From contig CM119267.1 of the NCBI GenBank assembly GCA_051294375.1, positions 553,523 through 617,522 of the forward strand: a DNA stretch of 64,000 nt, written 5' to 3'. The DNA is from Paraspadella gotoi. Its lineage: Eukaryota; Animalia; Chaetognatha. Both the position numbers and the translations under genes were made by a program. Positions 30,401-36,400 of this stretch are shown here, in pieces. The notes beneath the pieces were generated by a model. It had not been told where the DNA came from and did not search any database. It saw only the letters and a program-made list of their open reading frames with translations. Every line of letters begins with the position of its first letter. The stretch's first letter is position 1.

Positions 30401-33400
30401 TTTGGCGCTGAAACAGAACAAGGACGCCCTCTTGACGCTGGAGACGATTCCGAGTCGGACGCGCGACGCCAAGGTAAGGATCCACGCCCCTTCTCCGGAT
30501 CGCGTTCGGCTTTTAGTCGGATCTGCTTTCAGCAGATCCCGACTCTATAATTCATTTTGTCGGTCCGTCGGTCCTCCCCCTCAATATTGTCGGGCACTCG
30601 CTTATATCATGTCAGAACATCAAATTATGATAAATTATTCAAAAAAACGATGTCCGTCCGTCCGTCCATCCCACCTTAGCAAAAAACACCAATTACTCGT
30701 GATTAGATGGATGGATTGGAATGAAATTTTGTGTGTGGGTAGGGAAGTGTGTGATTGAGCTGTATATGAAGTTTCGATGGAATCGGAAAAAACATAAAAT
30801 TTATTTCACTATTTGAACACTAATTACTCATGAGTGGAAGGGGCGATTGACTTGAAATTTTGTATTTGGGTAGAAAAAGTGTGTGATTAAACTGGAAATC
30901 AAGTTTCGATGGAATCGTTTGAGTGAAAATGAGTTTAAATGGAAAAAACAAAAACTATTTCACTAATTGATTATGCTTTTTTTTTCTTTTTATTATAAAT
31001 GTAAATGCAAGATGTATTAATTTATCAAATAATTAATCAGTTAATTAATTAATTAGTCAATTAATCAATCAAAACAAACCTTTCGGATTAAATTAATGCC
31101 TAATTAATTAAGTAATTAATTTGAATAAATTAATTAATTAAATAATTAATCAACTTGAATTAATTATTAATTAATTATTAATTAATTACCGATAATGATC
31201 GTGGGCAGATCCGACATTGTTTGCTCAAACTTGTTTTTTTTTAGTTGGGTTTTCTATAACCATCTTTGTTAATTTTTTTGTTGGGTTTTCTATAACCATC
31301 TTTGTTTAATACTTGGGGTAATTGTAAGAATTGCGTGATTATTGAATATAGATCAATCGACAGGACGGCCATGAAGTTAAGAAAAGTCAATAAATTCGTG
31401 AAGATTGAATAATTAAAAAGAAAATTTAAAAATACGAAAAAGATCCGAAACTTAATTCAAGTTTCCCGATAGTAATCAGATCCGGTTTTGAAGTTTAGAA
31501 GGCTTAACGATCTCGCTGAAGAAAATTCCTCGGATCTAAAAATCTTCTCTTTTCTTTCATTATTTTCTTCTCTCTTCTTTCTATTATTTCTCCGGCGCTG
31601 TTCCTGTTTACTCTCCTCTCCTGTCAATTAATAATTCTACTCGAGATCTTAATTCTTATCGCTAAAAATAAAAAATATTCGAAGACGATATCTATTAATA
31701 TTAAGTTAATATGCTCTCGCTCCCGCATATATCGAATCTTCTCAAACTGATACGGTTGCGAAAATGCTCCGACGGAATCCCTTACTACTTGACGCGCTTG
31801 TGCTTCGTCCTCATCGTCTATCTTCTCGCTAAATGGCTCTTCTCCCTAACGTGTCTGCTACTCGGTTTGATGCCGCAGCGGGCTCAGCACGACGCACCCG
31901 AGCTCCTCCTGCCCACCATGCTTCGAGATATAAAGTGGCAACGAGAGAGAGACAAAATTTTGGAAAAGGATCTTCAACCTTTCATCGATAGCGATCAATT
32001 GGTATCGAGTTTAAAGAATCCCTGTTGGTTCGAGGAGGAGAACAGATGGAGCCCCTACGAGAACAATACTTACATGATTCGTGAACGGGAGTCGGTCAAG
32101 ACCGAGATGGAGCGACTCCAACAGACTTGGCGCTCCTTGCGAAATCAGAGCCACCGAACTGGAGCGACGCCGCTCCTCCGCCGATTTCGTTGCATGCCCT
32201 TCTTCCACATAATCGGCATGCCCAAGTGCGGCACGACGGATCTCTACGAGCGACTCCAAACTCACCCTCAAATTGAGTCCTGCCTCATCAAAGAGCCCAT
32301 GTGGTGGACGCAGACTCGATTCGGGATCCTCTCCCCTTACGTCGCCCTTTACGAGAAAAGAGGGATCTTGCCCAACGCCCCGCCCGCCACCTTCGCCGAC
32401 TACTTGGATCTCTTCGATTTAGCGGCCGAGAAGATCCTTCGAGCCTCGACCATCGCCGCCAATCAGGATCAGATCGTGGGCGAAGCCTCGACCAGCCTGA
32501 TGTGGTCCAACGACGCTTGGCTCAACTACCGAGGATGGCGAATCGCGGACGGCGAGGATTCTCTCTCTCCGCTCGTCTCCTCTCACTTGGCTCATCTCAA
32601 CCCTAAAGTCAAACTCATCGTCATCTTGCGAAATCCCGTCACTCGCCTCTTCTCCAGCTACAGATTCCAATGGAACAGCCAGCGAAAAACAGCGGAGAAT
32701 TTCCACGCTCAGGTCGTCGCCGCCGTCCGGATTTTGGAGACGTGTTTAAAGTCGGCGCCTCTTAAATCCTGCGTGTACGCGCCCGAAATCCACAGCGCGA
32801 ATCTCAGCGGCGTTCCGACGCCGCTCACCTTGCGGCGCGGCCTCTACCACGTCTTCCTTCGCGAGTGGTTGCGTAATTTTCCACGGAAACAAATTTTGAT
32901 CCTGCGGTTGGAGGATTACGCTCGAAACGTCTCGGCCGCCTTGGAAAAGGTGCGCCAGTTCCTCGGATTGAAGACCGAGTTCGTCGTCGACGATAAAACG
33001 ACGAAGAAAATCGTGAATCGAGGTCATGTCGACATCGGTCCCATGAAGGAGGAGACGGCCGAGTTGTTGAGGAAATTCTACTCGCCGCACAACAAGAAGT
33101 TGGCAGAAATGTTGGACGACGAGAGTTTCTTGTGGAATTAGATCACTTTTGCTTAATCTCTCGTTGTCATTGTTACGTTACGTTACGTTGCTGCCTTGAT
33201 TTATTGTTAGCGGGTGAAAAGAGTGTTAGAATTGTCGACCACTGGGGGTGTTTTCTACACGAAGGACGTTGTAAATGTTGTGGGCGATGACGGCAGACGC
33301 CGGTCGGAACACGAGACCCTCTAACGCGTAGACCACAATGTCGGTAAACCAAGGGCGACACGGTCGACCACAATATTGCCCACTGAATGTCACGAGAGAA

Positions 33401-36400
33401 CCGGGACGCTAACCGATTAGGACTCACACTCACATACTTTCCTTTCCACGATGCTCACAAGGCTGTAAAGGGAATAATACAATGACATAAGTCAAATAGA
33501 CAGTAAGAAAATATTATGCATCGGTAAACAATAAGTCTTTGGATGATCTTCTTCATGAAATTGTCTTCATCATTATTATTTTATAATTTTATGACGATAT
33601 GTGTATATATATTTTTATTTTGAAAAACGGATAAAGGCTGTGTTTTAACTTGTAAATTAAAAATAAAAATCTGAAAGTTAATCTTTTCTTGGTCTTGTAT
33701 GTAGTAATATAGTAAGGGAAAGATTAAGTCTTATTTTGTTGCAAGCTATAATCTATCGCTTACGGCTTAGGGTAGTGCGGGGTAATTCGGAACACTGACA
33801 TATAAAAAATAAAATTATGTACTAATCTTTTATAATTTTTATAGTTGCAAGAATGAATCTCTTATAAACCAACTGCTATAGAGGTCAATAAAGCTGAATT
33901 TAAATAAAATTTTAATCAACCTTTAGTTTGGACAATTTTCTCAGTATATTGTTGATAAGGCGTTAAGTGGGCTGAAGAGAAGGGTGGAGTGATGAAAATA
34001 TTAAGCTTGTTAACAATATATTTTTGCTGCCTCCGTGTGCTGTTACTCCATGAGCCTCCGGGTCACGACTGACTTAGAAGCGGGGTGAAATTATAGCAAT
34101 GCAATGTCCCATTACAATATCACCATAAATTTTTTTCGAAAATATATTTACTTTGTGAAAAATTTAATTACTTACAAGTGTTCGGAATTACCATGCACTA
34201 CCCTCCTCAAATTCTAATGGAATTAAGCTTTAACTTTAAGTCGATAAGCTGGGGATAAATTGAAGTGAAATCTGTCATGATTAAAATCGAGAACTCTTAG
34301 CAATGTTTCATAATGAATCAAATAGTCAAGTTGTACATCGAGGAAAATAAATCCACGGAAAAAGCTCATGTTTGTGCGACGAATAAATGTCCGACATTTA
34401 ATCTTCACGAAAGACTGTTGACACTCTTGCCTCATCAGTCTTACCCATCCTAGATCAACATGAGCCTGGCGCGACTCTACGAAGACTCGGGTCAGGACCG
34501 CGCCGCCGCCCAGTGCTTCAAGGAAGTTCTGCGGGTTCAGGCTCTGGCCCTGGAGGCGGCGCAGGGCCTGGCCAGGACGGGGATGAAGGGCGCCGATGTC
34601 GCCGCCATCATCAGACAGACGATGAAAGACACGGGGGCGACGGGGATTAAGACCGAGGAGTCCAACGGGGAAGAGGCTTTGAAAATGGGTGAGATAGAGA
34701 GAGAGAGAGAGAGAGAGAGAGAGAGAGAGAGAAAAGGAGCGGCAAGAAGTGACTTCTATTTCTCTTTCTTTTTTGTTCCCGTTCCCTCAGACGGATCCCC
34801 ACCCCTCCGAGACTTTCCTAACTCTATCTCACCCCCCGCATCCGTCTCCTCTATCGGGATCGAGTGGGTCGGGACTTGGGTCCACGGTCACGCCCACCTC
34901 TCTGCGGGCGAGTACCAACCCGCCCTCGCCGCCTTTGAAAGTCTACTCTCCCTCCCAGCCTTTCGAGATTCCGCCGAGATTCTCGTCGCTGTGGGGCGGA
35001 CGCAGTATTTGCAGGTGAGAGAGAAAGAGAGAGATAGAGAGCAGTCACCCTAGCTAACGTTTTATTACACGAAAACCATTTTTGCCTTTTTTGTTTAATT
35101 TAAAATTTTATCTCTCACACACACGCTCACTTTCAGGGCAACTACGAAGCGGCCAAATGGACCTTGGAACGCGTCCATTACCAAAACCCCTCCTACCTCC
35201 CTGGCGCCGATCTCCTCGCCCACCTCCTCTTCAAGTCGAAACTCTTTAAGGATCTCGAGTCGCTCGCCGTTTCTCTCATGGAGACGACCGACCGCGCCTC
35301 CGAAGCCTGGGTCGCCATGGGTTACGTCTCCTGCTCGCAGAAGAAGGACAAGCGCGCCATCTACTTGGCGCAAAGGGCCTACACCCTCGACCGGCGCAAC
35401 GTGGAGGCGTTGCTGCTCAAGGGTGCCGCTCTGGCGGAGATCAAACGCGTCGCCGACGCCATCGTTCACTTTCGCGAGGCGTTGCGCCTCTCTCCTCGTC
35501 GCTTCGAGGCGCACCAAGGCCTCGTTGGCTGCTACCTTGGTCAACGGCGCATGCGCGAGGCCGTCTCACAGGCCAAGGAGGCCTTCAACCTTCTCGGCCA
35601 CACCGCCCGCTCCCTGACACTCTACGCGACAGTCTTGGCCAAGGAGCCACTCACCGTGAAAAAGGCCAAGATTTATCTGGAGAACGCTCTGAGGGTGGAT
35701 CCTCTCCACGCCCCGGCAGTTTACCTCCTTGCCGAGATCCACGCCTCCCTCCAAGAGTTCGAGAAGGGAGCAGAGTTGCTGCGGAAGCAACTCGGGCTCC
35801 AATCCTTTGCCAGGATGCACCAGACGCTCGGCGACTTTCTCTCACAGCTCAAGGATTATCAAGGAGCGTTGGATCAATACAGCATAGCTCTCTCTCTCGA
35901 ACCATCCAACGCCCGAGCCTTGGAAGGTATTCAAAGGGTGGAGAAGGCGAGCGATCTCGGAGGCGGCGCCGCTGCGGCCGCGCCCACTCCCGTAACTTCC
36001 GGTCTTCGTCCCGGCGGCGCCTTCGACGACATGGTCGGCGCCGAGTCGGACAACGAGGCCGAATTGTCTGACGGAGTCGAGGCGACGGGAGATTGGAGCG
36101 ACAACGAATTCGGGTGAAAGGAAATTGAAGTGGGGGGGAGGAGTGGATGTATTTGAATGTATTTCAACCTCATATCAATCACTCTTACTTTTCTATGAGA
36201 GAATACTGTATTATTACAAGTGCCATGATTTGTGATGTACATTTTTTTCGATTACAGTTCGTGAAAACCAAGATGTTGTTTGTCACTTTTAAATTTTTTT
36301 TGTGATTTTCGTCCCTCATCGATTTTGCAATCATGTCTACTTTGATGTTTTTATATTTCAATTTGAGTTTGTTTTTTTTTATTTATTGGTATATTGTTTT

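What the first reader, a model, noticed from the sequence alone, without database searches (positions are those of the whole stretch)
30474..34453. Triple 'Russian-doll' nesting: intronless sulfotransferase inside ANAPC7 (same strand) inside tubulin intron 1
Seen: ANAPC7 exon 1 ends AAG|GTAAGG (30473) and resumes TAG|ATCAAC (34454). The intron holds a complete 476-aa CHST15-like ORF on the same strand, flanked by a HINE-like element upstream and by an LTR-like piece and a MITE downstream. Established: same-strand nesting is the rarer orientation because the guest's poly(A) signal can truncate the host. Inference: this is a retro- or TE-mobilised insertion. It may be expressed from its own promoter, through intronic polyadenylation of ANAPC7, or through trans-splicing of the intron.
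Basis: partly seen in the sequence, partly recalled or inferred. Interest (0 to 1): 0.7.

Follow-up and report, generated by a model that had tools for sequence, protein, structure and literature searches.

The report
Sulfotransferase gene doubly nested in introns
A complete sugar-sulfating enzyme gene lies inside an intron of a cell-cycle gene, which itself lies inside a tubulin intron; such double nesting is already known in animals, and this guest is likely an old resident with its own weak promoter, not a fresh transposon passenger.

Summary
The nesting is real. ANAPC7 exon 1 (30024-30473) matches human APC7 residues 1-135 and exon 2 resumes at residue 137 (34454). The 3,980-nt GT-AG intron between them holds an intact 476-aa CHST15-family ORF on the same strand. 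All of this lies antisense in the 26,544-nt first intron of a divergent beta-tubulin.

The HINE upstream and a MITE-like element downstream are confirmed by structure; the 'LTR' is not. Recent retro- or TE-mobilisation has no support: no poly(A) tail or target-site duplication, the HINE closes 480 nt before the ATG, codon use matches the neighbours, and 4 of the 9 other genes in that tubulin intron are also intronless. Same-strand orientation is the local rule: all 13 other train genes share it.

One RNA-like run holds an unspliced contig over the ORF, but it also covers other intron parts, so a separate mRNA is not shown. The ANAPC7 exon 1-2 joint was not among the rows displayed. Doubly nested and parallel genes are documented (484 doubly nested in a ctenophore). 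Verdict: new member of a known kind. The more interesting lead is next door: the gene train looks co-transcribed.

The parts
30024..30473 (+). ANAPC7 exon 1 (150 codons)
30474..34453 (+). ANAPC7 intron 1, 3,980 nt, GT-AG, phase 0
   Evidence: joint not among the 15 of 58 joint rows shown
30515..31231 (+). Complete HINE/DINE-1-like element: 11-nt subterminal inverted repeats at 30516 and 31205, 5' inner inverted repeat, GTCC microsatellite, 3' stem-loop, T-run flanks; related copies near 42500, 58700 and 59790
   Evidence: definition from PMC4067079 passages
31232..31710 (+). Upstream spacer, 30% GC; candidate promoter or 5' UTR (inferred); pyrimidine-rich AG-free run 31522-31643; no TATA-like match; no YAG acceptor within 150 nt of the ATG
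31711..33141 (+). Intronless CHST15-family sulfotransferase ORF, 476 aa; N-terminal membrane helix near residues 30-51; K172, E195, R307 and S315 kept
33205..33572 (.).
33769..34204 (.). MITE-like element, 28-nt inverted ends, holds 3 of the 6 downstream AATAAA
34454..34688 (+). ANAPC7 exon 2
34791..35014 (+). ANAPC7 exon 3
35137..36117 (+). ANAPC7 exon 4; a donor in its last codon is spliced to 36410 in run X1
45191..45327 (-). Beta-tubulin exon 1 (GC donor)
18647..45190 (-). Beta-tubulin intron 1, 26,544 nt, holding 10 antisense genes (ABHD4/5-like, ASB-like, PRDX5-like, NME6-like, POLK, ANAPC7, CHST15-like, PRKRIP1, PASK, SIRT6; names other than ANAPC7, CHST15 and SIRT6 rest on Pfam domains plus recall)
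18527..18646 (-). Beta-tubulin exon 2

Best explanation
An intact, intronless CHST15-family sulfotransferase gene lies in ANAPC7 intron 1, itself inside a beta-tubulin intron; it is likely an old resident that would be transcribed weakly from its own promoter while ANAPC7 is likely spliced around it. Shown: the three-level anatomy, the intact ORF with membrane helix and PAPS-binding residues, resident-like codon use, and RNA-like cover of the ORF. Inferred: an ancient duplication or relocation placed it here; having no splice sites of its own, it does not disturb host splicing; the HINE and MITE landed later and independently in a tolerant intron; a promoter lies in or just after the HINE and a weak poly(A) site lies at or beyond 33662; the product is a Golgi type II enzyme that sulfates a glycan, possibly not the vertebrate CHST15 substrate.
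For: Codon use is like the neighbours': GC3s 0.69 against 0.61-0.77 in 8 other coding stretches; CAI 0.646 against 0.634-0.765, with off-frame and intron controls at 0.40-0.54. The residues nearly invariant across 150 diverse family representatives are kept: K172 (146 of 150), K194 (148), E195 (137), R307 (147), P309 (149), S315 (149). E195 lines up with the catalytic base Glu184 of 3-OST-3 (PMC8341778 passages). The model (pLDDT 71.9) matches heparan-sulfate sulfotransferase folds. The nearest relatives are only 39-45% identical, 2.9 changes per site away, so no young parent is on record. One X1 contig covers 31208-33385 unspliced, from 503 nt before the ATG to 244 nt after the stop. The gene lacks the upstream acceptor that 6 of 13 train genes have. 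In flies 72.53% of same-strand nested genes are single-exon (PMC3814207).
Against: No promoter, start site or 3' end was seen, and there is no TATA-like match. Other X1 contigs also cover the intron at 33929, 34020 and 34313-34415, so the ORF's cover may be host pre-mRNA, tubulin pre-mRNA or DNA. X1 is a single run whose RNA nature is a guess, although it shows 6 GT..AG joints among 15 rows. The protein departs at 9 of 74 core positions, including H197M and D316S, against 1 of 66, 2 of 67 and 7 of 72 for three other non-vertebrate-set proteins; these positions do vary in the wider family (H in 83 of 150, D in 92 of 150). Six AATAAA lie on the sense strand downstream (expected 2.0, p 0.01, first-order model; 3.0, p 0.08, second-order model). 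The train appears co-transcribed, which favours the first rival.
Confidence: 0.5

Rival explanations
1. The gene has no promoter. It is cut out of the train's read-through pre-mRNA, gaining a 5' end by trans-splicing or by cis-splicing from an upstream exon, and a 3' end at an intronic poly(A) site.
For: Spacers of 142-356 nt separate several train genes. One contig spans three genes, and one GT..AG joint links ANAPC7's last codon to the PRKRIP1 leader. Strong acceptors precede the ATG in 6 of 13 genes against 0 of 13 control stretches (p 0.015). A 75%-pyrimidine, AG-free run ends 65 nt before this ATG.
Against: That run ends in a non-YAG site, and 45 AG-free runs of 100 nt or more occur in the window. 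The contig is unspliced across all candidate acceptors. All four candidate joins to ANAPC7 exon 1 are out of frame and stop within 4-34 codons. No leader sequence was seen.
Confidence: 0.22
2. The ORF is a silent or decaying passenger, copied only as part of the host intron and then degraded.
For: Its RNA cover cannot be told from intron cover; 9 of 74 core positions are changed; none of the three exact or homology look-ups found this protein or a close orthologue.
Against: 476 codons without a stop or frameshift, with helix, PAPS motifs and codon bias intact despite deep divergence. Three other window proteins were also absent from the exact look-up.
Confidence: 0.1
3. A recent retrocopy or Helentron/LTR-borne capture inserted the gene, perhaps creating intron 1 in the act.
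For: It is intronless and TE-flanked. The intron position is not widely shared: of 5 animal-like metagenome loci covering the junction, 4 have no intron there and 1 has a 168-nt intron one base upstream. Helentrons can capture gene fragments (PMC4067079 abstract).
Against: The longest A-run after the stop is 6; the longest flanking direct repeat is 12 nt against 9-13 in shuffles; the intron ends are 6 of 30 complementary. The HINE has both ends upstream of the ORF, with no further subterminal repeat in the rest of the intron. TE flanks are common for nested genes: 1109 of 2357 in Hormiphora. An ancient retroposition whose traces have eroded is not excluded and is part of the best explanation.
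Confidence: 0.13
4. The nesting is an assembly error that joined an unrelated piece through the HINE and the downstream repeat.
For: High-copy repeats flank the ORF, and the X1 contig leaves the window's sequence at 33385 for 314 letters.
Against: There is no gap in the region (the only Ns are at 47603-47612). The HINE is whole, and ANAPC7's two halves meet residue to residue across a canonical intron.
Confidence: 0.05

Closest known systems
Doubly nested intronic genes of the ctenophore Hormiphora californensis (PMC8527503, passages read)
   Same: A gene within an intron of a nested gene (484 of 2357 nested genes); many parallel to the host; 1109 TE-flanked on one side or more and 176 on both.
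   Different: Another lineage; there shown by Iso-Seq, here the inner transcript is not resolved.
Russian-doll and same-strand nested genes of Drosophila (PMC5174743 and PMC3814207, passages read)
   Same: A handful of three-level cases; up to 13 genes in one host; same-strand guests mostly single-exon.
   Different: Fly guests are often young duplicates; this one looks old, and its outer host is a tubulin around a dense train of housekeeping genes.
Mammalian host/nested pairs with premature host polyadenylation (PMC11694760, passages read)
   Same: Guest in the first intron; guest expression could shorten the host transcript.
   Different: No shortened ANAPC7 transcript was seen here.
CHST15 / GalNAc4S-6ST family
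   Same: Best named hits, type II topology, PAPS-binding motifs, catalytic glutamate.
   Different: 33-40% identity to named members; 9 of 74 core positions changed; groups with three unnamed proteins on a long branch; substrate untested.
HINE / DINE-1 non-autonomous Helentrons (PMC4067079, abstract and passages read)
   Same: Subterminal inverted repeats, inner 5' repeat, microsatellite, 3' stem-loop, T-rich target.
   Different: No autonomous partner was sought; it carries no part of the ORF.

Membership tests
Doubly nested intronic gene | Whole coding sequence inside one intron of the host | tested here: met
Doubly nested intronic gene | Host inside an intron of a third gene | tested here: met
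   Open 9-exon tubulin model and no second exon 1 in the window; by homology only
Doubly nested intronic gene | Host intron removed in RNA | tested here: inconclusive
   Joint not among 15 rows shown, 43 hidden; ANAPC7 intron 3 is also not shown although bin arithmetic implies it is skipped
Doubly nested intronic gene | Guest has a transcript of its own | tested here: inconclusive
   Unspliced contig over the ORF; other intron parts are covered too
Retrogene | No introns | tested here: met
   not diagnostic, since 4 of 9 neighbours in the tubulin intron are intronless
Retrogene | Poly(A) remnant and target-site duplication | tested here: not met
Retrogene | Intron-bearing parent in the same genome | not testable with these tools
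   No genome held
HINE/DINE-1 | Subterminal inverted repeats plus inner 5' repeat | tested here: met
   Exact 11-nt inverted pair at 30516 and 31205
HINE/DINE-1 | 3' stem-loop, microsatellite, T-rich flanks, interspersed copies | tested here: met
Helentron gene capture | Captured ORF lies between the element's ends | tested here: not met
   The element ends 480 nt before the ATG
Solo LTR | TG..CA ends with 4-6 nt target-site duplication | tested here: inconclusive
   3 candidates against 3.0 by chance
MITE | Terminal inverted repeats | tested here: met
   28 nt, 89%
MITE | Target-site duplication and many copies | tested here: inconclusive
   No clear duplication; no second copy in the window
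CHST15 family | Type II membrane helix, PAPS motifs, catalytic glutamate | tested here: met
CHST15 family | GalNAc 4-sulfate 6-O-sulfotransferase activity | not testable with these tools
   Needs an enzyme assay; H197M and D316S differ from vertebrate CHST15
Trans-spliced operon | Short same-strand spacers and co-transcription | tested here: inconclusive
   Spacers and one gene-to-gene splice fit; contigs alone do not show single transcripts
Trans-spliced operon | Spliced leader on downstream genes | not tested
   Only contigs were available, and no leader was among the loose ends shown

The most novel reading that the evidence does not exclude
The housekeeping train inside the tubulin intron is one polycistronic unit in an animal lineage with no named relative in the databases, and the sulfotransferase mRNA is carved out of a host intron of that unit without a promoter: a protein-coding message matured from an intron, competing with ANAPC7 splicing.
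Probability: 0.12. Interest if true: 0.7.

Novelty: new member of a known kind. Interest (0 to 1): 0.27.

Why it matters
As it stands this is a clean but ordinary example of double nesting, and a trap for gene predictors, which could split ANAPC7 or miss the tubulin. It would matter more if the train is polycistronic: one short-intron locus would then test directly how a same-strand intronic gene gains its cap and 3' end without cutting off an essential cell-cycle host and the genes behind it.

Tried and rejected
No whole genome is held, so paralogues, TE copy numbers and a parent gene could not be sought. No RNA holder is on record; X1's RNA nature is a guess. X2 and X3 hold next to none of the stretch. 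A second laying of X1 on a narrower stretch gave no result, so the exon 1-2 joint stays unseen.

Contig depths were looked at (ORF 8.4; downstream intron 4.8-6.3; ANAPC7 exons 3-4 81) but cannot rank genes or gene parts, so they are not used as evidence of expression level. Rfam and tRNA scans: 0 matches. No sulfotransferase in any of 41 ANAPC7 metagenome loci; most are short, and only 5 cover the junction.

H197M was first taken as a sign of a dead enzyme and then rejected, because the position varies in the wider family. An in-frame ANAPC7-sulfotransferase fusion was rejected (the 31643 join was misplaced by two bases and is superseded). The idea that intron 1 is itself a TE with inverted ends was rejected.

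The lineage is not resolved: SIRT6 is 53-61% identical to nearly all named animals listed and groups with three unnamed proteins at about 70%, with weak placement. The CHST15 tree carries a long-branch warning and holds one named invertebrate. The acceptor test used a cut-off chosen after seeing and only 13 genes. Earlier-finding look-ups were empty. Paper searches were seen as listings only and gave nothing used.
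Full report
Observation. The sequence shows the donor after 30473 and the acceptor before 34454. The 150 codons from 30024 align to human APC7 residues 1-135, and the frame from 34454 aligns from residue 137. Of five exon sets tried, only 30024-30473, 34454-34688, 34791-35014, 35137-36117 is open, giving 629 aa with three GT-AG introns. An unnamed relative's ANAPC7 (P0124, 70% identical in exon 4) is continuous at this junction, and the window holds no alternative exon 2. 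The intron carries a 476-aa ORF with a sulfotransferase domain. A beta-tubulin on the minus strand reads open for 401 aa over nine exons; intron 1 is 26,544 nt with a GC donor and holds ten plus-strand genes, and intron 3 holds two more. The three-level nesting is therefore real by sequence and homology.

The guest protein. Its best hits are three unnamed proteins at 39-45%, then named CHST15(-like) proteins at 33-40%. An exhaustive search of 50%-identity representatives found nothing closer. It groups with the three unnamed proteins (100/99) on a long branch, with a long-branch warning. It has one N-terminal hydrophobic helix, both PAPS motifs, GC3s 0.69 and a codon index inside the neighbours' range. 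It keeps the positions that are nearly invariant in 150 diverse representatives, among them E195, which aligns with the catalytic base Glu184 of 3-OST-3 (PMC8341778 passages). It departs at 9 of 74 core positions, but those vary in the wider family. The model folds like heparan-sulfate sulfotransferases. Inference: an old, probably active Golgi sulfotransferase of uncertain substrate.

Flanking elements. The upstream element has related copies at three other places in the window, an exact 11-nt inverted pair at 30516 and 31205, an inner repeat, a microsatellite, a 3' stem-loop and T-run flanks. This fits the HINE definition (PMC4067079). Both ends lie upstream of the ORF, so this copy did not carry it. 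A MITE-like element has 28-nt inverted ends. The LTR call could not be confirmed.

Origin. There is no A-tail, no flanking duplication above chance and no inverted intron ends. Lack of introns says little here. The NME6-like, PRKRIP1, SIRT6 and ABHD-like genes are single ORFs too. The window's ANAPC7 exon 4 is unbroken where at least nine of 41 metagenome loci show an alignment break at P0125 residue 341/342. Of five loci covering the intron-1 junction, four have no intron there and one has an intron a single base upstream, so the intron's age is open. No parent gene could be sought.

RNA. One run, X1, holds 68% of the sampled words and shows six GT..AG joints among 15 rows displayed, with 43 hidden. 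The exon 1-2 joint is not displayed. ANAPC7 intron 3 is not displayed either, although the bin mean (66.1) matches its removal (66.3 expected), so this absence tells nothing. One contig covers 31208-33385 without a splice and then departs for 314 letters; other contigs cover later parts of the intron. A separate sulfotransferase mRNA is therefore compatible with the data but not shown.

Context. All fourteen genes of the train lie on the plus strand, several only 142-356 nt apart. One contig spans three genes. One joint (29 letters on the short side) splices ANAPC7's last codon to an acceptor 64 nt before the PRKRIP1 start; both forms end in the same residues, so the product has two ORFs. Strong acceptors precede the start in 6 of 13 genes against 0 of 13 controls, but not in the sulfotransferase. 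This suggests co-transcription and makes the guest's orientation unremarkable. It also keeps alive the rival in which the guest is released from read-through RNA.

Mechanism. Most likely (0.5) the guest has its own weak promoter in or after the HINE and a weak intronic 3' end, and ANAPC7 is spliced around it because the guest has no splice sites. The promoter, the 3' end and the host joint are all inferred. Six downstream AATAAA are at most marginally above chance, and three lie in the MITE. Rivals: release from read-through RNA (0.22), recent TE- or retro-borne insertion (0.13), silent passenger (0.10), misassembly (0.05).

Comparison and novelty. Hormiphora has 484 doubly nested genes among 2357, many parallel to the host, and 176 TE-flanked on both sides (PMC8527503 passages). 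Flies have a handful of Russian-doll cases and up to 13 guests per host (PMC5174743 passages); 71.27% of their nested genes are opposite-strand, and 72.53% of the same-strand ones are single-exon (PMC3814207 passages). Mammalian pairs favour first introns with only a slight orientation bias (PMC11694760 passages). A glass sponge has 2432 nested genes (PMC10282587 passages). PMC3192792 was seen in two passages and is not relied on. No supplements were read. The finding is a new member of a known kind. The lineage remains unidentified, so whether co-transcribed trains are already described for it cannot be said.

Noticed in passing
window 25916-45219: The plus-strand train looks co-transcribed: a contig spanning PRDX5-like, NME6-like and POLK; a GT..AG splice from ANAPC7's last codon (36113) to 36410 that keeps the same C-terminus and gives a two-ORF RNA running on through PRKRIP1 into PASK; 1 poly(A) hexamer in six short spacers against 2.6 expected. 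Deserves its own follow-up.
   Followed up: partly
window 25916, 36410, 43620 and upstream of POLQ, ABHD-like, ASB-like, EP400-like: Strong 3' splice acceptors shortly before start codons; two X1 contigs begin at or within a few letters of such sites, as expected for trans-splicing or untranslated first exons.
   Followed up: partly
window 6212-45327, minus strand: Divergent beta-tubulin whose exons sit in the gaps of the opposite-strand train; GC donors at introns 1 and 8, weak acceptors at exons 5 and 9, last exon not found; a SIRT6 contig overlaps the end of tubulin exon 1.
   Followed up: partly
window 23654-24966: 18-bp tandem satellite between a short upstream peroxiredoxin-like start near 23390 and the main PRDX5-like exon at 25916.
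   Followed up: no
window 47178-48037: Exact duplication with 435-nt spacing around the 10-N gap at 47603-47612, probably an assembly artefact.
   Followed up: no
window 1334-1594 and 55917-56177: A 261-nt interspersed repeat in inverted orientation, 92% complementary.
   Followed up: no
L004 4568-4735: An ANAPC7 intron one base upstream of the window's intron-1 position: a near-intron pair, by sliding or independent gain.
   Followed up: partly
window 33343-33385: The X1 contig over the sulfotransferase gathers mismatches here and then leaves the window's sequence for 314 letters: an insertion polymorphism or a path through a repeat.
   Followed up: no
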